Positions 6,516 through 54,896 of a DNA stretch of 64,000 nucleotides are shown piece by piece; position 1 is the stretch's first letter; the number at the start of each line of letters is the position of its first letter. The notes beneath the pieces are model-generated. The model searched no databases and was not told the DNA's origin. It saw only the letters and a list, made by a program, of their open reading frames with translations. The position numbers and the translations under genes were made by a program. This stretch comes from Octopus vulgaris (Eukaryota), in assembly GCA_951406725.2 (NCBI GenBank), contig OX597832.1, forward strand, positions 32,426,001-32,490,000, read 5' to 3'.

Positions 6516-7389
6516 CTTCAACCGTCGGGTTTAATAAGATTGTCCCCTTCCAATCACTTCATTTTTAATTCGAAATGGGTAGCATTTCAAATTATTCACA
6601 CAGATGTTGTTTTGCATGCTGATGGCAAATATTGCATTCATGATTTCGAGAAATTGATAATTAACATGTTAGAAGCATTTCAAGTGATATATTTTTCGCC
6701 GATCAAATAAGACCAATGTCCTCATGGTCGGAAATAGAAGCTGTTTGAAGCCAAGGAAAAATAGAATATCATTAAAATGAAAACAAGGGAACTATCAAAA
6801 TTGAAAGCGAGCAAACAAAAGGAGTTTCCCCACCACCACCAAATGCAAAAAAATTTAATAAAAGAAAACAAAACAAACACAATGGGAGATTTGTTTTAAA
6901 CTGAATTCAATGAAAGAAAAATAATCTTGTATATTTTCTATTTCGCTTTCGCACATGGAGAGTAATAAATAGAGATAAACGTCTTGTTTGTTTACTTCTA
7001 ACCCCTTTAAGAGATTTCTGTTTATATAAAATTACAATACAAATAGTATTATTGCCATAGTCCGGGGTTTTACTTGGACCAGCCGCTAGAAAAGAAAAAA
7101 TGAAAAACACGAAAGCTCATCGATCCAAAAAAGAAAAATGCGAAAAACAATACGGTGAAATGTTTTAACGAGATTGAGCATTGCACTGCATGTCTTGAAA
7201 GGCAAAGCATAATTTTACAATTTTCTTAAGTGCAACCTATAGAGACCGGCTAAGTTACACGGTCCTAAATATACCAATGCCACAAGCAGTGGTTGGGAAC
7301 GAACACCCGCACAAGGACACACACACACACACACACACGCACATACATACATACATACGTACCTACATACATACATACATACATACACA

Positions 7390-7439
<50 letters not shown>

Positions 7440-7590
7440 GAAGGGCTTTCTTCATTTGCAGTATACTAAATTTACTAGGAAGCCTTTGGTGGGCCCGAAT
7501 CTATAGTAGAAGACACTTACACGAGGTGCCATGCAGTGGGACTGAACCCGGAATCATGGGGTCGTGAAGCAAGCTTCTTACCACACATTC
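7440..7590 (-). mobile_element. CORE-like SINE 5' half
   Basis: 'ctatagtagaagacactt...ggtgccatgcagtgggactgaacccggaa...aagcaagcttcttaccaca'. Confidence 0.75.
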
Positions 7591-8098
7591 ACGTCACCAC
7601 TCTTAATGCACACACAAAAAACATACACACATACATACATACACACGCGCGTGTGCATTCATGCTGCGTAAATACCCATTTCTACGTGTGTTCTTCTCCT
7701 CTTCACTTTCGTGATGCTGAAGCTGATATCATTCTTCATAAAATAATGTTTAAACACAAATGATTAACAACAAAATTAATAATTTCCTAAAAAGTGTCGA
7801 TGGAACTGTAGACATTGTGTTTACATAAAAATATTTAAGACATTTAATATGAAGGAGACGGTGGCGATAACGATGCACTGTGTAGAGTGTAGATAACACG
7901 AATGGCGATGATGGTGGTGGCGATGGTCTTGATGATGACGATGATGATGACGATGATAACGACGACCACGGCGACGACGACGACGATGATCGTGATTTCG
8001 ATAATGATAATGAAGCTGATATTCAGATCTATAATGAGACTGATCATTATAGTTCGTAGAAAGTTATTGAAACTGTGTCTAATAATGTGTCACTTTTA

Positions 8099-11695: not shown

Positions 11696-12697
11696 AAAAG
11701 TCCGCAAGTTCGAAATCATGAATATGACAGTTAATTAAATGTGGAGTTAAAATGTTATTATTGATAACAATGTGATTCCTTGCAGCTAGTAACTTGCAAA
11801 TGTAATGTTTAATAATAAAATAATAATATCATTATACGAAATAGGTAACCTCACTATTTTAGACTTAACAAAGACAAACACGAACATCAATATGGCCAGG
11901 TGAAGCGAAATAACATACACAATAACAACTGTAGTTCCAGTATAGTTCATATATCATCCGATTTGCTTATGAAAGCATATCAAATACAAGCGCAATTTAG
12001 ATACAAAATCATTCAAAAACTACATATTCAATAAAATGAAAATATATTGCAGTTTATGATAAATTGTATATCACTGAGAACGAATTTAAAAAGGATGTGT
12101 AAATCACTTAAGGAAGGTAGCATGGCCAGGAATGTTTCCATCGAAATAAAAAAAGAAACCGCTTAAAGGAAGAAAATCTCGCTTAATGGCAAAGAAATCT
12201 GTTATTATAGAAAGCGGCTATTATTTGCAGAAAACGATCAGTTCGTCTGGAGAACAAAGAAAATATTTACCAAGAATTGGTTAAAATAAAAACGGAAATC
12301 AATGGAATAGAATCAGTAGCATAAACATCCTGGTTTAGAATGAGGAGAGCGAAAAGAGGAAAAGAGAAAGATTACCTGTGTGTATGTGTGAAACTAAAGA
12401 ACAAAATGAAACGCTTCGACAATCGCAGGAAAGAACAAGAGACACGAAACAGCAAAGATTCAGATGCTTTTGTTTTTAATGTTTGCCATGAAGAAATACC
12501 TGTAAGGACATGAAAAGTTCTAGGATTTCATACATTGAAAAATTGGCCAGAATTATGAGGAGCCCTTGATAGGGGCCCACAAAACATGACTTAACGATTA
12601 AAATCTGACATAATAAGTCAATTGTGATAAAATAATAAAAAAAAGAAGAGGAATATTTTCATGATATTCCCACTTACGTAATATTCCCAACACGTAA

Positions 12698-13091
12698 GGC
12701 GGCGAGCTGGCAGAAACGTTAGCACGCCGAGCGAAATGCTTTGTGGTATTTCCTCGGCCGCTGCGTTCTGAGTCCAAATTCCACCGAGGTCGACTTTGCT
12801 TTTCATCCTTTCGGGGGCGATAAATTAAGTACCAGTTACACACTGGGGTCGACGTAATCGACTTAATCCGTTTGTCTGTCCTTGTTTGTCCTCTCTGTGT
12901 TTAGCTCCTTGTTGGTAGTAAAGTAATAGGTATTTCGTCTGCCGCTATGTTCTGAGTTCAAATTTCGCCGAGGTTGACTTTTCATCTATTCACAGTCGAT
13001 GATGAATTAATACCAGCTGCGTACTGTGGTCGATCTAATCGACTGGCCCCCCTCTTCCAAAATTTTGGGCTTTGTGCCTGGAGCAGAAAAG
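12698..13091 (+). mobile_element. tRNA-derived SINE with Nin/Deu-like domain, dimeric body, 17-bp TSD
   Basis: Head 'ggcggcgagctggcagaaacgttagcacgcc'. The block 'gttctgagt..aaatt..ccgaggt.gacttt..ttcatc..taccag' occurs twice (~12765, ~12948). TSD aatattcccaac(a/t)cg(t/c)a at 12680 and 13092. Confidence 0.85.
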
Positions 13092-15115
13092 AATATTCCC
13101 AACTCGCACAATGCAGATGATGAATGTGGCATGTGTAATGAATTAGCCATGCGAATACTTCACCATTAGCGGCACTTGAACTCGAAACATAGATTGGAGA
13201 ATCGAGAATGTCTCTATGCTATTTTACAATCGCGAAACCATTGTATTCCAGCTGCTTTAAGAAAACATTCTCTCCTTCAGAAAATAAAGGTGGGAAAATA
13301 TTTTTTAACTTCAACACACAGTTTCACAACATAACTTCAGTTCATTTGCTAAATTAAAATTGATAGAATATTAGTAATTAGGTAGCAATATTATGAAATC
13401 CTTAATGAAGTGTGAAGGGGGCCTCAAATTTGAGAAATTGAAGTTAAGGGTTGAAGTAATTACATGATGCCTATTGACAAATATTTCTATTAGCTTTTGT
13501 GTAATTGGCAAAACTGTAGAGGTCTTCCTACCATTTCTATGCAGCTCGATAAATATTCGCAGCAGAAAATAACAATTCTGGGATTTGCAATAAGTGTAAA
13601 GGCATTCTCAGGTGGCGGTTGTAATCTTCAACATTTTTGTTGTCTTGGAATCTCCTTGTTGGCATTGAACAAAGTTTATGCCAGTTTTCCTAGATGCACC
13701 ATTTTTGTGAATTGTTTAGATAATAGGAAGCTCTTGTTATATCTATCATACTGTGAATAATCTATGAAATAATAAGATTAGCAATGACGATAATGATTCG
13801 TTTATTGCCACGAGGATGGGCGACGTGTGACATTGCATTTAAAGTATTGTGAAAGACCGTTTATGATGAAGTAAAATTGATAATAGATGGACGAACGGTC
13901 GTACAAACATAAAACGAATAGTTTTGCCTCAATGAATGGAACGCCATATGTCATGTGACTTGAGTTCTTCGAATAATGGTGAATCAATCCAAATACTTAT
14001 ACATAATAGCGCCAAGTAAATATATTGCAAGAATATCAATCCCAACCGGCAATAATAAATCTCTAAAAGACTTGGATATGATATGCAAATGGATGGAATA
14101 TCTCGAAATACAGATTTCTTGAATTACGTGGTTGATAACAGAAAACAAACTCTATTATATTTGATGCACTGGGAATGATGATGTAATGTAAAACGTACAC
14201 AATATATATAATACGAATATTTGAACTTATGCATTTACATTCAGCATATAAGAAGGCAACAGCAACATGAATACCACTTGAGATAAACTAGAAAGAAAAT
14301 TTGCAGAATAGCTGGTATCCAAACCTGTAAACATGTACGAACGCACGCACGCACGCACGCACGCATATACACGCGAACAGAGTCAAATGCGATAAAACAC
14401 AAGTTATATAGCTTCACATAAATGGATGCTTCAAACAGAGAAAACTATATTCGTAGTATTAAATATTCACTGAATAAAGATCGCCACAAGCGTATACTGG
14501 AAAATAAAGTTTCAGCCAGTGACTCTATGCTGAGATATACGTATTCATACAGACATGGAAATGTAAATCTCTCTTATATTAATGTGGTCTTCACCAACAA
14601 GAGACGGAATCTCTTTTATTCGATCGATAGGTTCCAGAGAGCGATAATAGTATATCGGTAAGTAATATGAGGGGTCTATAGAAATATAACATTTTTGAAA
14701 TTGATGCGAACATAAGGTGAGGGATTTAGAACAGGAATAAAATCACTGACAAAATTCGGGTATCGTCATATTTATTGAAACAAACTTAAAGGATAAGTTA
14801 AAACACTGGACTTAGATGCATAATGTACGTATGGGAATAACCATTTATTTTTCAAAAGATTAAGGAATAGCTGACACATCTCTACACAACAGAGCGTGTT
14901 GAACATATTTAAATATAATTACACACGGACTTAAAGACGCAACATAACTAACACAGAATGTACAGACACAACACATAAATTATGGCCTTTATTCTTAAGC
15001 TCACATATATAGAGAGACAAAACAGAATAACATAATTTTGCTCTGCAGATGCGTGCGTGTGTATGCATATGTATATATATGGATGTATGCATGTATGTAT
15101 ACATGTGTGTGTATG

Positions 15116-17185: not shown

Positions 17186-17571
17186 ATACTGCCAGACAGA
17201 AATAACAATAGCAGCAATAAATAATGTCAACAGGCACAGTAATGTTAATGGTAATAAGAAAATATAATACGGCAGATGACCATTATAAAAACGAAAAGTG
17301 ATATAAGGACGAATATTTTTATTTTATTATTTTGTAGAATGGTGGAATAGGGGGAAACGAGAAACTTCATTGAGTCTTCGTAGATACATGTGTTCTGTAC
17401 TTAAGGTGAGTTCCACAATGACTCTCTGTAGAGTAAAGAGTACCGATAAGAAGTTGATAGCAATTGTAAAAAGTTTATTTATGTTAAATGGACATCACGT
17501 TTTGGGACAGATTCTAGAGCTGTCCATCATAATCTCTCCAGTTTCATACTTCTTAAAAAATATTCATGTAA

Positions 17572-17960
17572 GCGCAGGCGTGGCTATGTGGTAAGCAGAT
17601 TGCTTCCCAACCACATGCTTCCGGGTTCAGTCCCACTGCATGGCAGCGCGAGCAAGTGTCTTTTAATACAGCCACAAAGCCTTGTGAGTGGATTTGGTAG
17701 ACGGAAACCGAAAGAATTCCGTCGTGTATATATATATACATATTTATGTGTGCGGCTTTGTGTCTGTGTTTCTCCCTCCCCGCCGTTGCTTGACGACCGA
17801 TGTTGGTGCCCGTTATTGTGCCCGTTACCTAGCGGTTTGCCAAAAGAGACCAATAGAGTAAGTACCAAGATTACAAAAAAGATATCCTGGGGTCGATTTG
17901 TTCCATTAACATGCAATGCCCCAGTATGGGCTGGAATCATACCACTGAAACAAATAAAAT
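17572..17960 (+). mobile_element. Same CORE-like SINE, near full-length
   Basis: Colinear with 41502-41930. Confidence 0.85.
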
Positions 17961-18107
17961 AAATCAAAATGTGTATATTAGTTTGTTTTTGTATGTTTGT
18001 TTATTATTCATGGAATCAAAAGAAGGAATAGAATACACGAATGACTCTGAAGTTTGATCTGGAAAATAGCTGTGTATATGACTGGTACATTCAAAATAGT
18101 CGATCCG

Positions 18108-37570: not shown

Positions 37571-40300
37571 CCCCTATATATACATATAAATTGAGCAAAA
37601 ACGCAATAGAGGGCATTGAAACGTTCGGACAGATAGACGATACAAAGGTGGACAAGAGAAACAACAATTAAAGAAAAGGCAAAAATGACGGGCCAGTCTT
37701 GGCTTTCTTTCTTCAGTCACATACCAGAGGTCATGACAATTTCGGACATTTACGCTTGAGATGTTTCGATCTCGTGGTCCCCAACACGGATCAATGGAGC
37801 TTGATTTATATTCCTTGGTGCTCTGAGTTTGAAAGCGTGGTGCTAATCCTCACCCATTGGAAATTTGAATGAATGGTCAGTTGGAGAAAGTCAATTTCTA
37901 TTATTCTCAAACTTGTCTCTCATTCTGAATTCCAATGACTGAGGATTATCATCACGCCTTGAAAGTCGGAACGCCAAGGAAATTCAATAGAAATCTTTTG
38001 ATTTATACATTTAATTCCCAGTTGCGTGCCCACCTTTCGCTTGTCCGATCACTCTTATATATATATATATATATATAATTTTATATAAAATTAATTAAGG
38101 ATAGAAGTTGATATTTATCAATTAAAACCAGTGGTCTAGCATATTAAAAAAGAATCCGAAGATTAAAATATTTGAGAACATAATCTTTTGTGGAGAATGG
38201 CGATTTGACGTCTAAATCTAGCATGTTGACAGTCCACTTTTTGTGTTCAGTCCTTAATTGGTATATATATATATATATATACCATATTAATTCCAGCTCA
38301 TTGAACTCATTGTGACATAGTAGACGACGCTTGCTCAAGGTGCCACGTTGTGGGACTCAGTCGTAAAAAACATAGTTACCAAATGGCCTTCATAACCACA
38401 GAAGGGACAATACTTCTCAAGTGACTGCAAAGATGTACAAATATCGTATTTTAAAAATATTTCTCTTACAGTTTTGTATATCAATTGTAATTAAAGAAAA
38501 AATTGTACGTGACAAAACAAAAACGCGTTTTTAGATCTTCCTCACACCTTGGATATATTTATTAATTTCAAATATTCTTATTCGTTCTGCCCAAAATGCA
38601 TTCAACCAGATTTGTTTCCATCTCTTGTCGTTTTTTATTTCCCACCCCACATAATAATCATGTCCTTGATAACTTCTGAGCTTCAGCAATTGAGGATTCA
38701 TTACATTCAAGACAAGAATATACTCTCTTTTCTCTTCTTCTTATGCCTCTTTATATTTTGTCCTGAAAAGGCCATGCTACATCGATTGCAACACACACCA
38801 TCTTACTGTCGATGGCTGGAGGATTTAGCATGTTGAATAATGTTATTTAGAATTGTTGAAATCTAACGCTTATTTCGAACAAAAATAATTACATTTTTCC
38901 GTGCATGCAAAACCAAATTTATTGCAAAACCTCTTGGGTATTGCTGTAGTACTTCTATCATGGCTACAACTCCTGAATTCTGTTTGACGTAACCAAAAGC
39001 TTTGCAATTGAGTGTGAGCAACAGACTCATGTAACACATCGTTAAGGCGTCGGGAAAAATGCATCGAGTTATTTGTTCCGGGTCCATAAGGTCTTCGTTG
39101 AAATCCCACCGACAGATATGAACTCAGAGCGTAATTATTAATTATACGGAGCGTAATTTTTCTTTCATCTCTTTACGATTGATAATATAAAGTATCAAAC
39201 AAGTATTGAGGCGATGCAATTGGCCACGTAATATTTCATTAAAAATTCTATCATCATTATTGTCATTATCATCGTCGTCGTCGTCACTTTTGTCGTTACT
39301 GTTATTATTATGGCGGCGAGCTGACTGAACCGTTGTACGCCAGACAAAATGCTTAGCGACACAACGTATTGCCGTTGATAGCCTTCATTTCCCAACTCGG
39401 ACAAAACCAAGCATTTTCTTTCCGTTATTCACTACAATATACAAAAGCTATTTTTTTTCAAAAGGAATTTTATAATTTGCTCGTTGTAAAGTCCTGTTTC
39501 CTACGCATGTCAGTAGATGATATTCACTTATATATACATATATATATGGATATATATATATATATATAGTAAATTTAGGGTGAATATTTGATAAGTGTAA
39601 GTACCTGTATACGCCTGCTAGTAGCAGAGGTAAGAAGGTATATGTATCAAATGAAATCAAAAACAGAACACAAAGGATGTCGCGGATCCTTTGTGCTCTG
39701 GTTTTGATTTCACCTGATACATACATATATATATATATATATATGATTTATTTATATTTATAATACATTTACGTGCGTATATTTCCAATGCCACTATATT
39801 TTTGGTATTGTACACGTGTAGTGTTTGTTGTACTTGCATGATAAACAAGACAGTTGTAATAAGATACAATTCTGAAAATTGCGAGTCGTTTGTTACACAC
39901 TTTTACTGTTAATGGTATTTTGGTAAGGTACCGACCAAAATGAGATTGCTTGCTTTTTCGATTGATATTTTCTTTCTTCAAAAAATAGTCCTGTTGTGTG
40001 TGGACTAATATGTATATAAGTATATATATTTACATGTATGTGTATGCGTGTGTGTGTATGTGTGTGATGTCTGTGTCTGTGTGTTTTCTATATGTCCAAT
40101 CGCATGTTTTTGTATCGTACTTTCGTTACACACATATGCAAGCATACACAGGCATATTTGTTTGTGTGTATGTGTGTGTATTCTTTTGTGTCTGTGTTAA
40201 AGTGTGTGTTTATATTGTAAATTATATATGATTTAATGTAGCAATATACATATATACATACATATATATATGTGTGTGTGTGTGTGTGTGTATGTGTGTG

Positions 40301-40608
40301 AAGGCGGTTAGAGCATCGAGCTTACGATCGTGAGGTTGTGAGTTCCAATTCCGAGCCGGGCTGCGTGTTGTGACACTTTATTTCACGTTGCTCCAGTTCA
40401 CTCAGCTGTAGAAATGAGTTGCGACGTCACAGGTGTCAGGCTCTATCGGCCTTTGCCTTTCCTTTGGATAACACTGGTGGCGTGGAGAGGGCCGATATGT
40501 ATGTCCGACTGATGGTCTTCCATAAACAACCTTGCCCGGACTTATGTCTGGGAGGTTAACTTTCTAGGTACAATCCCCCATTCAGTGTCGTGACCGAAGG
40601 GGGTCTCA
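40301..40608 (+). mobile_element. Meta/MESC-like SINE, tail type 2
   Basis: 'gacactttatttcacgttgctccagttcactcagctgtagaaatgagttgcgacgtcac', shared with 62616-62785. Confidence 0.75.
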
Positions 40609-40719
40609 GAATATATATAAATTTAATCCAAACAAGAAAACACAAAAAAACACAGCAACGCGAGGACGTGGAACAAATAAAGTATTATTGTACGCTCATG
40701 AAAGAAGGGAAGAAGGAGG

Positions 40720-40754
40720 GTTTAACGTTTCGAGCGGAGCTCTTCGTCGGAAAC
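40720..40754 (-). ncRNA. Minimal hammerhead-like motif, family A variant
   Basis: Minus strand: GUUU-CCGACGA-A-GAGC-UCC-GCUC-GAAA-CG-UU-AAAC. Stem I covaries relative to the 23640 copy; the core has U4>C. Confidence 0.6.
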
Positions 40755-41501
40755 ATAGGAGAAGGAAAGATCCCGAGAAGGGAAGACATGGGTATATTAT
40801 GTTAGATTAAATGAAATTAGTAGTGATTCATTATATATGGCCGCGTGTTTCAGTGTTTATGGAATGAGTGGGATATATGATTCATGCCCTTGCATTCGTA
40901 GATAAATTTGGGATAGAAATGTTGGGATATATACTGAAGGGCGGAGGATAATTTGGGACAGAGAAACTGTGGTGAGTAATGAAAACAAGCAATGCAACAA
41001 ACAACTTGGAATTCTGAGCCAAGGTGGACGGAGGAATAACTTTTTGTGATTGAGAAATTCATTAGAAAGAATATCAATGAAATGCGTAGTAACTATTTCC
41101 ATGTAAAAAAAAAAATTGGAGGCACAAAAATTGATGGAACTGTGAGAAATGTGGAGAATACGAGTTGAATTCCTAAAATTTAAAACTTTTAAGAACATCA
41201 TCTTTGATTATACAAAAATTTCGCAATAAATCTATTTTCCTTGGGAAAATAGTAGACAGAAAGAAAAGAATTAATAGCTAGCAGCGTCGTAATGAAATTC
41301 ATATAAGAGAGTTAAAGTGTTTGAATTAAATAATATTAATATAGAAAATAGTAGACTTCTGGAACTGTTGGGTGAGAGGAGAATAAAAGGGAATCTGCTT
41401 GCTGCAAAATCTTCCTTTTCTATGCAGAAAAATTTCATTTCTTTTAAATAATTAAACAAAAGAATTAGCGATGTGAACTAAGGATGTTTCAAAATTTAAT
41501 G

Positions 41502-41930
41502 AGAAGGAGTCGTTGTGTGGTAAGTAGCTTGATTACCAACCACATGCTTGCGAGTTCAGTCCCACTGCGTGGCATCTTGGGCAAGTGTTTTCGACTATAG
41601 CCTCGGGCCGACCACAGCCTTGTGAGTGGATATGGTAGATGGAAACTGAAAGAAGCCCATCGTATATATGCATATATATATATATATATGTGTGTATGTG
41701 TGTGTGTGTGTGTGTGTGTATGTTTGTGTGTCTGTGTTTCTCCCTCCAACATCACTTGACAACTGATGCTGGTGTGTTTACGTCCCCGTTACTTAGCGGT
41801 TCAGCAAAAGAAGCCGATAGAATAAGTACTAGGCCTACGAAGAATAAGTCCTGAGGTCGATTTGCTCGACTAAAGGCGGTGCTCCAGCATGACCACTGTC
41901 AAATGATTGAAACAAGTAAAAAAGAGTAAA
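41502..41930 (+). mobile_element. Abundant tRNA-derived SINE with CORE-like segment and internal (TA)/(TG) microsatellite, full-length copy
   Basis: 'tgtgtggtaagtagcttgattaccaaccacatg...gttcagtcccactgcgtggcatcttgggcaagtg...gccttgtgagtgg..ggtaga.ggaaactgaaagaagccc' + microsatellite + 'acttagcggttc...ggcggtgctccagcatg...gaaacaagtaaaa'; more than 10 partial copies in the window. Confidence 0.85.
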
Positions 41931-43217
41931 GTGAATTTGTGAGAATAATAAGAAGTTAAATATTAAGAAAAAACTCACAGTATATCATCTCAGGACATCG
42001 GAGACTAAGTGAGACTAACATCAAAAGGTTGCTATGTATAAACGTTTACGTTTAACGCTTGACTTATCTTATTCTGCGACTTTTTATAAACCTACACATA
42101 TCTTTGCACTGCATGCACTTACTTTACAAACGCTCACAAAATATAATTAATAATTTTAAAGATATTTCGCTTCGAATCCGAAATTTTTCCGTTGACATAA
42201 AATTCTTTAATAAAACTGCACATCTCCAGATCAAAGCCGCCACCACAGAGGTCATAACGCTTCATAAAAATGGTAGACAGAAGAATCTACCGTAAAATTA
42301 TTACAAATAATATTAATAGAAAGAATAGAAGCATGAATAGGACAACTAACATAACTTTATATAATTCTCACTTTAACTTAGAAGTAATTAATCAAACTGT
42401 TACAACTTTCTCCTAGCTTCTTAGATCTCGCGTCCAGTTAGAACAGAAAGGGTAAAGAATTATTTTTTTAACGAAATCTTTATCAAATCATCCTTCTCTA
42501 TCACTTCAAATTTTCGATAAACCCTAACATCCATCAACGTACAAAAGTTAAGTCAAAGACCAATACACAACAATATCTGTTGAAATTGTAAGTATCCTAG
42601 TAACTGCTATTGAAATCAGAAATAACTGGCTACACAGATTAAGATATCCTATGGAATATATTCACTCACACTTCTAAATTACATACACATAAATATACAT
42701 CTGAATTCTGAAAGAAATCTACGATAACTACACTCAAACATTTAAGGAGCAAAATCGAAAGACGAAAGTTCCCTGTTGTAATATATTTGGAAAAAGAAGA
42801 ATACTTATTACACAGAAAAATTCGAAATGGGATTAAGATCCAAGTCTTTTTCGGGTAAAAAAATCCACGCTGAGAAAGTTAGTCGTCTCGTTTGCAAAGT
42901 GCTATTTTTGTGATAAATAGGAGAAAGGGTTCCTTTATATTAACAGAGGAGCCCGAAAACCGTAACTCTTTTTTTCAATCAATATAATTCTGGCATTATT
43001 TATCTAGTTTCATGAACTCTAAACTTTTCAGTATAATACATTTCTCCAATTTGAGTCGTTTTACAGGAAGGGCACATGATCTATTGTTATAGGTGTTTTT
43101 CTCGTAATCCGATGCTCAGATTAAAGCCACAATCAGAAAGGTCATTAGATTCAGCACCACGTCATGTCCTTGAATATGTTACTTCATTTCAATCTGCCCC
43201 AGTCTATTCATCCAAAC

Positions 43218-44269: not shown

Positions 44270-44690
44270 GATTTATTCTTACACTGTGGCCATGCTGGGG
44301 CACCACTTTAAAGAGCTTTAAATCGAATGACTGGACATTTCTGCTTATTTGGTTAAACCCGGCATTTATTTTATCTGTCTATTTCGCTGAACTGCAAAGT
44401 TACGGGGACGTAAGCACACTAACACCGGCTATAAAGTGGTGGTAGTGGTAGACAAACGGACACATAGTCTATCACACACACGCGCGCACACACACAGACT
44501 CACGCACACACACAGACTCATGCACACACACAGACTCACGCACACACACATGCATATTTACCAACTCTACTCCCAAGTCTTTGGTCGGCCCGACGCTATA
44601 GTAGGAGACACTTGCCCAAGGTGCCACGCAGTAGCATTAAACATGGAACTTTGTGTTTGAGAAGGAAACTTCTGAGCACACAGCCATATC
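44270..44690 (-). mobile_element. Same CORE-like SINE, minus strand
   Basis: 'ggccatgctggggcacc...gttacggggacgtaa...gacacttgcccaaggtgccacgcagt'. Confidence 0.8.
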
Positions 44691-47540: not shown

Positions 47541-47880
<340 letters not shown>

Positions 47881-47891
47881 GATATATAAAC

Positions 47892-47934
<43 letters not shown>

Positions 47935-48605
47935 AGTCCTCTGGACATCAACAACATCAGTGCCGGATTAGGCACTAATATGTGATGTATCGTTGACGGG
48001 TGATTCGGCTTTTATGTAACTACTGGATGTCCATCGGTGATAAATGCAAAACAAGGCGAGAACATGCGATCTAGCAGTTCTGGCGGCTGTAGTAGACGAA
48101 TCTTGTTTGTCAATGATATAAATACGAGTGCCTTTATGCACCACGAAACCATATAAGAGGTCCTCTCGTGCTAAATAACGTAGTACTCTTTGTCATACAT
48201 ATGTTTGTGTGTGCGTGTGTGTATGTGCGTATGTGTGTGTACATATATATATATATATATACATATATATGCGTGTGTATTTGGGTATATATATATAAAT
48301 ATAAATGTATATGTATATATATATATATATAATTAATTAATAAGGGTGAGAGAATTAGATACTAATTTAATAGTATATCCATTCAACACCAAGTGGCCCA
48401 GTGCTCCGAGAAACCTGGATTATTATAATATTTTATAATATATTATAATATTTTTACAAAAATAAATATAAGAGAGTGGTCACATATGGCTCACTCTAGC
48501 ACTAGTTAATCCAAAAGGTTTCAACCACAAAAATACATGTTTCCCATGAAAGTCAGTACGATTGTTAGCTCACACGAACAGGGCAAATAAAAAATAACAA
48601 AAATA

Positions 48606-48700
48606 CAGATTATTTTGGGACAATTGTTTCGCTATTAATGAATTAAATGTAATTTTACTTACAAAAAAATCCACTGTAGCTCCTCAGCCAAAACTATCTG
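48606..48700 (-). ncRNA. Type I hammerhead ribozyme (inverted second copy)
   Basis: Plus strand reads ttttgg-ga-caattg-tttc-gcta...tagc-tcctcag-ccaaaa (48613-48693), the reverse complement of the 49599-49680 motif with core and stems intact. Confidence 0.87.
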
Positions 48701-49591
48701 GATGAAATCCACTCAATCACACGCCAGATTTTACCATAACGATAAATACACGTGTGGTTCAATTGATTACATCCGACGTTATAATTCAAATGCCCCTACT
48801 AACAGCGCGCCAAACTTTCAGGGAAACAAATACTACATTTAGAAATAAATGTAGCATAATTATAATTGATTAATAAGGGTGAGAGAATTAGATACTAAGT
48901 TAATAGTATATCCATTCAACACCAAGTGGCCCAGTGCTCCGAGAAACCTGGATTATTATAATATTTTATAATATATTATAATATTTTTACAAAAATAAAT
49001 ATAAGAGAGTGGTCACTATATGGCTCACTCTAGCACTAGTTAATCCAAAAGGTTTCAACCACAAAAATATTTCGTGGATTATATTTATTTTTGTAAAAAT
49101 ATTATAATATATTATAAAATATTATAATAATCCAGGTTTCTCGGAGCACTGTATTTTTGTTATTTTTTATTTGCCCTGTCCGTGTGAGCTAACAATCGTA
49201 CTGACTTTCATGGGAAACATGTATTTTTGTGGTTGAAACCTTTTGGATTAACTAGTGCTAGAGTGAGCCATATAGTGACCACTCTCTTATATTTATTTTT
49301 GTAAAAATATTATAATATATTATAAAATATTATAATAATCCAGGTTTCTCGGAGCACTGGGCCACTTGGTGTTGAATGGATATACTATTAACTTAGTATC
49401 TAATTCTCTCACCCTTATTAATCAATTATAATTATGCTACATTTATTTCTAAATGCAGTATTTGTTTTCCGTGAGAGTTTGGCGCGCTGTTAGTTGGGGC
49501 ATTTGAATTATAACGTCGGATGTAATCAATTGAACCACACGTGTATTTATCGTTATGGTAATATCTGGCGTGTGATTGAGTGGATTTCATC

Positions 49592-49687
49592 CAGATAGTT
49601 TTGGCTGAGGAGCTACGAGTGGATTTTTTTGTAAGTAAAATTACATTTAATTCATTAATAGCGAAACAATTGTCCCAAAATAATCTG
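49592..49687 (+). ncRNA. Type I hammerhead ribozyme
   Basis: TTTTGG(49599-604)-CTGAGGA(49605-611)-GCTA...TAGC(49612-15/49659-62)-GAAA(49663-66)-CAATTG-TC(49673-74)-CCAAAA(49675-80). All core positions match CUGANGA/GAAA/UH. Stem I extends via CAGAT/ATCTG. Confidence 0.88.
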
Positions 49688-49829
49688 TATTTTTGTTATT
49701 TTTTATTTGCCCTGTTCGTGTGAGCTAACAATCGTACTGACTTTCATGGGAAACATGTATTTTTGTGGTTGAAACCTTTTGGATTAACTAGTGCTAGAGT
49801 GAGCCATATAGTGACCACTCTCTTATATT

Positions 49830-49865
<36 letters not shown>

Positions 49866-49960
49866 TTGCATATATACATATATATGTATACGTCTATATC
49901 TATATCTATCTATCTATCCATCTATCTATCTCTCCCTCTCCCTCACTCTCTCTCTCTCTC

Positions 49961-53676: not shown

Positions 53677-54896
53677 GACATTTCTTATAGATTTCCCCTG
53701 CCCCACATATCAAGGATCGGGATAAACGAAACTTAGAATAATTATTGGTCTTTCTCTACATAGCCCCCACAAATGGTCACACACTTCACCCCTCGCTATA
53801 TTCAGCTGTGAAGACCTCTTTTGTACCAGTCGGTAGGATGCATCTGGATCCAAGACTTTACACCGGAAATATCCGAAAATTGCTTCCCTTTCAAAAATGA
53901 GTTCATGGTTGGAAAGAGGTGGAAGTTACATGGTGCGAGGTGGGGAGAGTAAGGGAGAGCAGGAAGGATTTCATAGCCGCGGGTATGTGCTTCCATCTGG
54001 GCAACATGCGCATTGTGAACTGAGGTGTTGTCTTCGAGGAGGTGGACTTCTTTGACCAGCATGCCACGCCCCTCTGCTTTGATGGCGTCCCGCATTTTCT
54101 GCAGCAGAGAAGCATACTTGTTAATAATTGTGGTGTCCTTTTCCAGTAAATCCATCAGCATTAATCCGCTCTGGCCCCAAAAGACTGCGAGCATCACCTT
54201 GACCGCTGAAAGCTGGACACGAGCATTCTTTGGCGGTGGTGAGTTATCATGCTTTCAATGCTTATACTGGACTTTAGTCTCAGGATCATAGTGTTGGCCC
54301 CATGTTTCAACCTGTACGATATGTCTATCGAAAAAGTCCTCGTTTTCTCGGCACATTGCTAAAAGTGCCTGGGAGCAATTGCCTCGTTCTTGCTTCTGAA
54401 AAGTTGTGAGCATCCGGGGAATTCCTCGTACAGACCGCTTCCACATGTTCAAATGTTCGTGAATGACTTTTTCCACGGATCCTACACTTATCGTCACTTC
54501 TTGGGCTAGTTGCCAAATAGTTATGCGGCGATCCTCCAAAATGCCAGATTCCACTTTACGGGTGGTGTCCTCATCAATGGCGGAATATAGTCGTCCAGGA
54601 GTAGGAGTGTTTTCTACCGATGTCCGACCACATTTGACCTGGCGATGTTAGTGCTTGACTACGTCGTATGATGTTGCATCGTCACCATAAACTTCTTTCA
54701 TCTCATCAAAAGTCTCTTTTGGTGTACAACCTTTCAAGTATTAGAACCTGATCGCTGATCTGCATTCAACTGCCTCCATTATAACACCTTAGTCCAGTTC
54801 CGCAGCCGTAAAAGACAAACGAATACTAGTGAAATGCCGCAATTTACAACCTGACATGCCCAAGCTCTGTTTCCTGCAATAACCGAACACCCCTCG
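53672..54896 (-). mobile_element. Mariner (DD34D) DNA transposon, near full-length, inactivated; transposase pseudogene ~54779-53742
   Basis: MEAVECRSAIRF*YLKG...EDRRIT...GIPRML...VETW..HYDPETK...VFWGQSG...EDNTSVH...PYSPHLAPCNFHLFP...GGYVEK. The right end is 'cacccctcg|ta' and the left end is a degenerate 'ta|taaggga'. Inserted in (TA)n. Confidence 0.92.

What the first reader, a model, noticed from the sequence alone, without database searches (positions are those of the whole stretch)
49060..49160. Divergent inversion junction consistent with twin priming from a (TA)n target
Seen: on the hammerhead-sense strand both arms have their 3' ends facing outward, and each ends at an AT-rich internal spot that blends into (TA)n ('...attaattatatata' left, '...ttatatttattatata' right). 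The 5' ends meet in the middle through a ~9-nt filler (tttcgtgga) and a ~73-nt extra piece joined by CTG microhomology at 49149-51. The right arm begins only about 10 nt downstream of the predicted cleavage site. Inference: both strands of a nicked (TA)n target primed reverse transcription by microhomology, with template switches, and the right cDNA ended near the ribozyme-generated 5' end. Inverted pLTRs are an established Penelope hallmark.
Basis: inference. Interest (0 to 1): 0.7.

Follow-up and report, generated by a model that had tools for sequence, protein, structure and literature searches.

The report
Ribozyme repeat inserted from both strands
This is the head-to-head junction of a ribozyme-bearing repeat whose inverted copies almost always pair one long end with one short end, likely because both cut strands of a TA-repeat target start copying the same RNA at two fixed sites, which gives a direct test of how Penelope-type jumping genes insert.

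Summary
The junction joins two divergent arms of a 536-nt non-coding unit that carries a type I hammerhead motif. The family has about 2,070 unit copies and resembles a non-LTR retrozyme.

Across 129 fetched loci, 3' ends fall at two fixed sites, S (unit 158-162) and L (284-292), and 186 of 197 abut (TA)n. Of 76 inversions, 72 pair L with S, 1 is S+S, none is L+L and 3 are unclassified. An autonomous Neptune-like Penelope family (7 of 7) and two other hammerhead families (9 of 10; 2 of 2) do the same.

The two arms share one haplotype (0.35% vs 1.8% between loci), and 18 of 70 pairs stop at the same template point.

Two-strand priming is supported, but not L1-style twin priming: the sites are fixed and the arms overlap. 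Clustering of 5' ends at the cleavage site is not supported (78 of 87 arms read through it).

Inverted copies and a one-sided 'tail' are known for Penelope elements. The strict pairing, 100-131-nt tails and co-termination were not found in my searches. The junction was not checked on reads.

The parts
48243..48327 (.). left (TA)n-rich target flank
48328..49069 (-). left arm, 742 nt: unit u84-536 then u1-292; ends at the long (L, tailed) 3' site
48611..48695 (-). type I hammerhead motif of the left arm (core at 48687, predicted cleavage base at 48619)
   Evidence: cleavage not tested
49070..49078 (.). 9-nt filler at the inversion junction; 8 of 9 bases match the left flank at 48141-48148 on the minus strand (weak, may be chance)
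49079..49151 (+). extra 73-nt piece = unit u149-221, joined to the right arm by CTG microhomology
49149..49833 (+). right arm, 685 nt: unit u11-536 then u1-159; ends at the short (S) 3' site
49597..49682 (+). type I hammerhead motif of the right arm (core at 49605, long loop II, palindromic tetraloop III, predicted cleavage after 49674)
   Evidence: cleavage not tested
49456..49617 (+). stretch where the two arms differ (7 of their 8 differences); the 234 nt nearest the junction are identical, so this locus is a mosaic of two family haplotypes
49834..49917 (.). right (TA)n target flank

Best explanation
This is the middle junction of an insertion of a hammerhead-bearing, non-coding 536-nt repeat into (TA)n, whose two arms end at two different fixed sites, likely because a Penelope-type enzyme supplied in trans primed copying from both cut target strands, one at each site of the same RNA. 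SHOWN: unit structure, (TA)n flanks, two fixed 3' ends about 131 nt apart, one-long-one-short pairing, a shared haplotype between arms, read-through of the cleavage site, co-termination in about a quarter of inversions, and short microhomology or inserts at the junction. INFERRED: (1) an RT/GIY-YIG complex, likely a dimer, binds two hairpin-plus-U-rich sites (S and L) and cuts both strands of (TA)n. (2) Each strand primes at one site, and each site serves one primer only, hence the pairing. (3) Both cDNAs run towards the RNA 5' side, around a circle or along a homogeneous multimer; the L copier usually displaces the S cDNA. (4) The two antisense cDNAs are joined by microhomology, short template jumps or a local fold-back, giving the head-to-head inversion. 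When only one cDNA is captured, a single arm results, ending at S or L about equally often. At this locus the extra piece, the filler and the haplotype mosaic likely record at least two extra template switches or a later gene conversion.
For: Pairing: 72 L+S, 1 S+S, 0 L+L and 3 with an unclassified end among 76 inverted loci; single arms 30 S, 24 L, 1 other; p=8e-21 against independent choice. The pattern-ascertained subset gives 47 L+S of 49. No convergent pair was found. On contig C1, 22 of 40 loci bearing the 20-mer are inverted. Same template: 71 substitutions in 20,171 sites between arms (0.35%, 51 loci) vs 1.80% between loci (minimum 1.46% in 300 permutations); unit-to-unit 0.33%; 24 locus-private variants are carried by every copy in their locus, 12 of them across both arms. 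Coupling: 18 of 70 pairs stop within 30 nt of the same linear template position vs 3.9 by permutation (p<1e-4), and 4 of 62 free L arms stop at the S site vs 1.2 expected (p=0.03). Two primings are needed: 30 of 70 inversions, this one included, cannot be a fold-back copy of one cDNA. Replication in the same genome: a Neptune-like PLE with a 781-aa RT + GIY-YIG ORF has two ends about 38 nt apart, and 7 of 7 divergent pairs are L+S among 100 S and 31 L ends (p=8e-4). Hammerhead family B gives 9 of 10 and family C 2 of 2. In families A and C the L site follows a predicted hairpin with the same 4-bp closing helix. Literature: a purified PLE protein cuts and extends both strands, starts at two internal sites that bound the tail, and is predicted to be a dimer (PMC11167929).
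Against: No partner enzyme was identified: the unit has no blastn similarity to 50 GIY-YIG-bearing loci. In vitro, start-site use did not differ between strands in bulk, and the start site was not homologous to the cut DNA. Local hairpins at S and L fold no better than shuffles (z -0.50 and -0.28). 61 of 72 L arms run past S, which on one RNA needs strand displacement that was not tested. A shared haplotype could also come from two transcripts of one active source, or from conversion between arms; this locus is itself a two-haplotype mosaic. A shift test shows no phase signal overall (0.35% vs 0.26% and 0.31%), while a few loci have phase-matched variants (L006, L021, L139), so circle versus multimer is not settled. 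Exceptions: L094 is S+S, L225 is L+L, and three loci have an unclassified end. 40 of 70 inversions are also compatible with fold-back.
Confidence: 0.62

Rival explanations
1. Self-priming fold-back: one cDNA snaps back at a palindrome and copies itself, and the one-sided tail comes from endonuclease resolution of the intermediate. This is the reading of Arkhipova et al. 2013 for palindromic junctions and of Craig et al. 2021 for the tail.
For: 18 of 70 junctions are near-symmetric, with longer microhomology (mean 2.3 nt over the 15 without insert), several at the palindromic site near u49. 40 of 70 are compatible with fold-back. At this locus the 234 nt nearest the junction are identical in both arms. 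Published passages favour self-priming and EN resolution.
Against: In 30 of 70 inversions, this one included, neither arm is contained in the other's cDNA. In the non-periodic autonomous PLE, L210 and L213 have an S arm longer than the L arm while only L has the tail. Single arms end at S as often as at L.
Confidence: 0.17
2. Dual priming on two RNA molecules: an asymmetric complex uses site L on one transcript and site S on another transcript of the same source.
For: The arms overlap in template coordinates (61 of 72), which two RNAs explain without strand displacement. This locus carries two haplotypes. Dual priming was proposed for L1 (PMC2837659).
Against: The arms nearly always share a haplotype despite many family haplotypes. 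Co-termination and L stops at the S site are easier to explain on one molecule.
Confidence: 0.17
3. Assembly or library fold-back artefact, or two independent insertions side by side.
For: The junction was not checked on reads, and (TA)n is a shared target, so insertions cluster (for example, family B sits next to a PLE end in L164/L229).
Against: Artefactual fold-backs would duplicate the same end and flank; here the ends differ by rule in four unrelated families. Independent insertions would leave (TA)n in the middle, give convergent as well as divergent pairs, and show different haplotypes. (TA)n in the middle is seen only in L154 among the listed inserts, no convergent pair was found, and the arms share a haplotype.
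Confidence: 0.04

Closest known systems
Non-LTR retrozymes of animals (Cervera & de la Pena 2020, PMC7229834; Li et al. 2026, bioRxiv 10.64898/2026.07.22.740005)
   Same: Non-coding, low-GC (32.6%) tandem unit with one type I hammerhead per unit, strongly self-paired by prediction (z -7.65), dispersed in many copies, co-occurring with PLEs.
   Different: The 536-nt unit is longer than the 170-400 nt of the 2020 paper, though within the 51-972 bp of the preprint. The word 'inverted' does not occur in PMC7229834, and the parts of the preprint I read do not describe inverted insertions or fixed 3' ends. No pLTR homology to a local PLE was found.
Penelope-like element insertions with an inverted 5'-truncated copy and a one-sided tail (PMC8557442, PMC3846280, PMC11167929)
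   Same: Head-to-head inversion, two alternative 3' ends, tail on one side, (TA)n target.
   Different: There is no ORF, and the tail is about 131 nt (about 99 and 104 nt in families B and C) rather than 30-40 nt. The papers call the tail 'optional' or 'often only at one end'; here pairing is counted and near-absolute.
L1 twin priming and dual priming (as described in PMC2837659)
   Same: Both target strands prime, arms diverge with 5' ends meeting, and there is short microhomology at the inner junction.
   Different: There is no poly(A), both sites are internal and fixed, the arms overlap in template coordinates instead of leaving an internal deletion, and TSDs cannot be read in (TA)n.

Membership tests
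non-LTR retrozyme | short tandem units, each with a type I hammerhead | tested here: met
   536-nt period; arrays up to about 6 kb (L120, L139, L149); descriptor hit and fold. This locus has only one ribozyme per arm, so it alone fails the preprint's two-consecutive-units criterion for an 'active' copy.
non-LTR retrozyme | low GC (<45%), no protein coding | tested here: met
   GC 32.6%; no ORF of 130 aa or more over the element; no tblastn hit to the PLE ORF in the window
non-LTR retrozyme | highly self-paired unit RNA | tested here: met
   prediction only: -149.6 kcal/mol, z -7.65
non-LTR retrozyme | self-cleavage and accumulation as circular RNA | not testable with these tools
   needs in vitro transcription and RNA data; near-identical tandem passes are only indirect
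non-LTR retrozyme | homology to the pLTR of an autonomous PLE | tested here: inconclusive
   no blastn hit in 50 loci taken from 148 GIY-YIG matches out of 6,136 candidates
PLE-type insertion | inverted 5'-truncated copy, head to head | tested here: met
   76 divergent, 0 convergent
PLE-type insertion | tail at one end | tested here: met
   72 of 73 classifiable pairs; about 131 nt rather than 30-40 nt
PLE-type insertion | microsatellite (TA)n target | tested here: met
   186 of 197 3' ends; 37 of 53 single-arm 5' flanks
autonomous PLE | RT plus GIY-YIG ORF | tested here: not met
   the element is non-autonomous
L1-type twin priming | first priming on a poly(A) tail | tested here: not met
   ends are internal AT-rich sites
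L1-type twin priming | non-overlapping arms with an internal deletion | tested here: not met
   61 of 72 L arms pass the S site; only 4 of 62 stop at it
L1-type twin priming | target-site duplication | tested here: inconclusive
   not readable in (TA)n flanks; no empty allele was available

The most novel reading that the evidence does not exclude
Penelope-type integration is intrinsically a paired reaction. A reverse-transcriptase dimer loads on two hairpin-marked sites of one RNA, here a ribozyme-made circle, and extends both strands of a cut (TA)n at once while moving in a coupled way. The 'tail' is then the fixed spacing between the two subunits' start sites, and retrozymes parasitise PLEs by carrying a structural mimic of this two-site landing pad rather than pLTR sequence.
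Probability: 0.35. Interest if true: 0.8.

Novelty: new variant of a known kind. Interest (0 to 1): 0.6.

Why it matters
How PLEs make their tandem and inverted structures and their one-sided tail is named as unresolved in PMC8557442. The in vitro system of PMC11167929 found two start sites but no strand difference in bulk. The genomic rule found here predicts that the two strands of one target molecule use different sites on one RNA, which that system can test directly. It also gives insertion-level evidence that a hammerhead retrozyme is moved by PLE-type chemistry; the earlier support I read rests on co-occurrence and pLTR homology. The junction itself is one ordinary, slightly more tangled member of the family.

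Tried and rejected
Rfam found no hammerhead; its miRNA and U4 matches are below gathering score and reflect the inverted repeat.

Clustering of 5' ends at the cleavage site looked strong in the first BLAST pass, but that was an artefact of splitting hits at the unit boundary. After exact end-calling and delayed entry it gave p=0.064. The fullest bin is u31-60 (21 vs 9.6), which was not predicted.

TA microhomology as the selector of priming sites was rejected. Pure fold-back was rejected for 30 of 70 loci. A phase test for circle versus multimer was inconclusive. Local hairpin stability at S and L is not above shuffles. The search for a partner PLE by DNA similarity found none. A flank origin for the filler is an 8-of-9 match that may be chance.

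Sequencing-run search: no RNA holder listed. The junction and an empty allele were not examined on reads, so both remain open. Earlier-findings look-ups returned nothing. No structure or complex prediction was run, because the mobilising protein is not identified.

Rows dropped before counts: L047 and L049 (share flank and junction with L032); L044 and L066 from the pairwise length, microhomology and haplotype tests; overlapping re-fetches of one site.

Full report
ANATOMY. The window is G000:C19:32426001-32490000 in a 2.8-Gb, microsatellite-rich genome. The element spans 48328-49833. With u1 as the first base after the predicted cleavage site of a 536-nt unit, the left arm (minus strand) is u84-536 plus u1-292. 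Then come a 9-nt filler and a 73-nt piece equal to u149-221. The right arm is u11-536 plus u1-159 and shares CTG with the piece. Each arm holds one type I hammerhead motif with a long loop II and a palindromic tetraloop III (descriptor; fold z -3.98). Rfam does not detect it, and cleavage was not tested. The unit is 32.6% GC, has no long ORF and folds far better than shuffles (z -7.65). Both junction strings are unique in the assembly.

FAMILY AND SAMPLE. A 20-mer with up to one mismatch has 2,070 matches and its reversed control has none. I annotated 131 fetched loci, found either by a full-unit DNA search (biased to long arms) or by exact patterns (of which only the first 100 places are listed). 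Two were dropped as duplicates of L032, leaving 129 loci and 131 arm groups. For L006 and L021 one end was read from an overlapping locus. This is a sample, not a census, except on contig C1, where all 40 loci bearing the 20-mer were read and 22 are inverted.

3' ENDS. Ends fall at two sites: S (96 of 102 at u158-162) and L (90 of 95 at u284-292), about 131 nt apart. 186 of 197 are followed by (TA)n. Single arms end at S 30 times, at L 24 times and elsewhere once. Of 76 inverted loci, all divergent, 72 are L+S, 1 is S+S (the rearranged L094), none is L+L, and 3 have one unclassified end (p=8e-21 against independent choice; pattern-found subset 47 of 49). The window's locus is L (left) + S (right). 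Microhomology does not choose the sites: of 12 alternating-AT runs of 4-6 nt in the unit only the 4-nt run at u292 is used, and S ends in a T-tract. Both sites lie 10-15 nt after a predicted hairpin, and the L hairpin has the same 4-bp closing helix in the otherwise unalignable family C. Local folding is not better than shuffles, so this is a lead only.

5' ENDS. With delayed entry on the 135 pattern-found arms, there are 10 stops in u1-20 against 5.7 expected (p=0.064), and the fullest bin is u31-60. The stop rate is about twice as high before the site as after it (0.0039 vs 0.0020 per nt), which could mean a minority of cleaved linear templates or simple heterogeneity. Inner junctions show modest microhomology (1.69 vs 0.77 nt, 45 junctions; the observed values allow an isolated mismatch while the null is exact), and 25 of 70 carry inserts.

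COUPLING AND TEMPLATE. In 18 of 70 inversions both arms stop within 30 nt of the same linear template position (3.9 expected, p<1e-4; all 18 lie among the 45 pattern-found pairs), mostly with S slightly further. Four of 62 free L arms stop at the S site (1.2 expected, p=0.03), the classic twin-priming outcome, but 61 of 72 pass it. Thirty of 70, including this locus, cannot be a fold-back copy of a single cDNA; 40 can. The arms differ by 0.35% against 1.80% between loci, and successive units by 0.33%. Of the locus-private variants, 24 are in every copy of their locus, 9 in some and 154 in one. That fits a circle or a homogeneous multimer; a shift test shows no phase, and a few loci show phase-matched variants. 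This locus is atypical. The arms are identical for the inner 234 nt and carry 7 of their 8 differences in the next 162 nt (p=6e-4, post hoc), at sites that separate family haplotypes. A second template or a conversion event is needed here.

GENERALITY IN THIS GENOME. A GIY-YIG search led to an abundant young PLE with a 781-aa RT + GIY-YIG ORF. It has a Cys-rich linker of the kind that PMC8557442 gives for the Neptune and Nematis clades (no tree was built). It also inserts in (TA)n and has two ends about 38 nt apart. Among 100 short and 31 long ends over the same genomic range, all 7 divergent pairs within 12 kb are L+S (p=8e-4). Three further hand-picked inversions agree, and in L210 and L213 the untailed arm is the longer one. 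It shares no detectable DNA similarity with the unit, so it is a parallel case and at most a candidate partner. Two other hammerhead families found in flanks also have two ends: family B (about 99 nt apart; 9 L+S and 1 L+L among 10 pairs in 30 loci, tallied by eye, p=0.011) and family C (583-nt tandem unit, about 104 nt apart; 2 of 2 callable pairs, one pair uncalled).

MECHANISM. Most likely (0.62), a PLE-type RT/endonuclease complex acting in trans cuts both strands of (TA)n and primes one strand at L and the other at S of the same RNA. The cDNAs roll through the unit and are joined 5' to 5' by microhomology, jumps or local fold-back. The cutting, the dimer, the single RNA and the circle are inferred. 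Rivals are fold-back with endonuclease resolution (0.17; it fails alone but may do the joining), dual priming on two transcripts (0.17) and artefact or adjacent insertions (0.04).

WHAT IS KNOWN. PMC11167929 (read: parts 1-2 of 4, abstract through the start of methods) shows both-strand cleavage and extension, two internal start sites bounding the tail, a predicted dimer, no bulk strand difference in start site, and that ribozyme cleavage is dispensable. PMC8557442 (passages) and PMC3846280 (passages) describe inverted copies, a 30-40-bp tail often or optionally on one end, (TA)n targets and a self-priming interpretation. PMC7229834 (passages) and bioRxiv 10.64898/2026.07.22.740005 (parts 1-3 of 5) define animal retrozymes and link them to PLEs. 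PMC2837659 (passages) defines twin and dual priming. Passages of 10.1101/2024.12.14.628481 were read and not used. Searches returned no paper, among the listings and passages I saw, that counts the pairing, reports co-termination, or describes inverted two-ended insertions for a retrozyme. The library lacks most subscription papers, including early Penelope reviews cited by these works. I read no supplements; Fig. S2 of PMC11167929 and the preprint's closed supplements may bear on novelty.

VERDICT. The element is filed as a likely non-LTR retrozyme (cleavage and circles untested) that inserts like a PLE. It works like twin priming but fails the L1 definition. New variant of a known kind; interest 0.6, carried by the family-wide pairing rule rather than by this junction.

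Noticed in passing
L186:430-5672 (G000:C16:20834500-20842500) and L187-L205: Abundant young PLE family (about 98% identical copies, many with intact 781-aa RT + GIY-YIG frames, plus an upstream frame of about 350 aa with no Pfam match and a pLTR of about 456 bp). No canonical hammerhead was found in its pLTR by my descriptor.
   Followed up: partly
L215-L244 (pattern, 538 matches): Hammerhead family B: not tandem in the listed places, two 3' ends about 99 nt apart, the first only about 36 nt past the ribozyme. L215 has a PLE-like ORF fragment (29% identity) directly downstream of the ribozyme.
   Followed up: partly
L245-L274 (pattern, 278 matches): Hammerhead family C: 583-nt tandem unit, two 3' ends about 104 nt apart, L site behind a hairpin with the same closing helix as in the window's family.
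   Followed up: partly
L107:819, L194:1733, L159:690, L163:45, L177:3033, L008:1114: Further type I hammerhead-like motifs with long loop II in flanks; probably more families.
   Followed up: no
L032, L044, L047, L049 (contig C1): Four loci share one inversion junction (u37/u525). Three share a flank (duplicates), but L044 lacks that flank marker and has other arm lengths, so it may be a re-mobilised or recombined composite.
   Followed up: partly
unit u45-53 (window about 49183-49191): 5'-end and symmetric-junction hotspot at a short palindrome (L058, L081, L146, L154 and others).
   Followed up: partly
window 53802-54647, minus strand: Broken mariner/Tc1-type transposase remnant (Pfam Transposase_1, E 3e-13), interrupted by a stop.
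   Followed up: partly
window 7310-7646, 12692-13097, 17555-18004, 40223-40792, 41492-41935, 44283-44689, 47619-47934: Short interspersed repeats shared with 18-75 of the fetched loci's flanks; not classified.
   Followed up: no
L120 (G000:C28:10731500-10741400), L139, L149: Long arrays of the unit (arms up to 6.1 kb) that still obey the long+short rule.
   Followed up: yes
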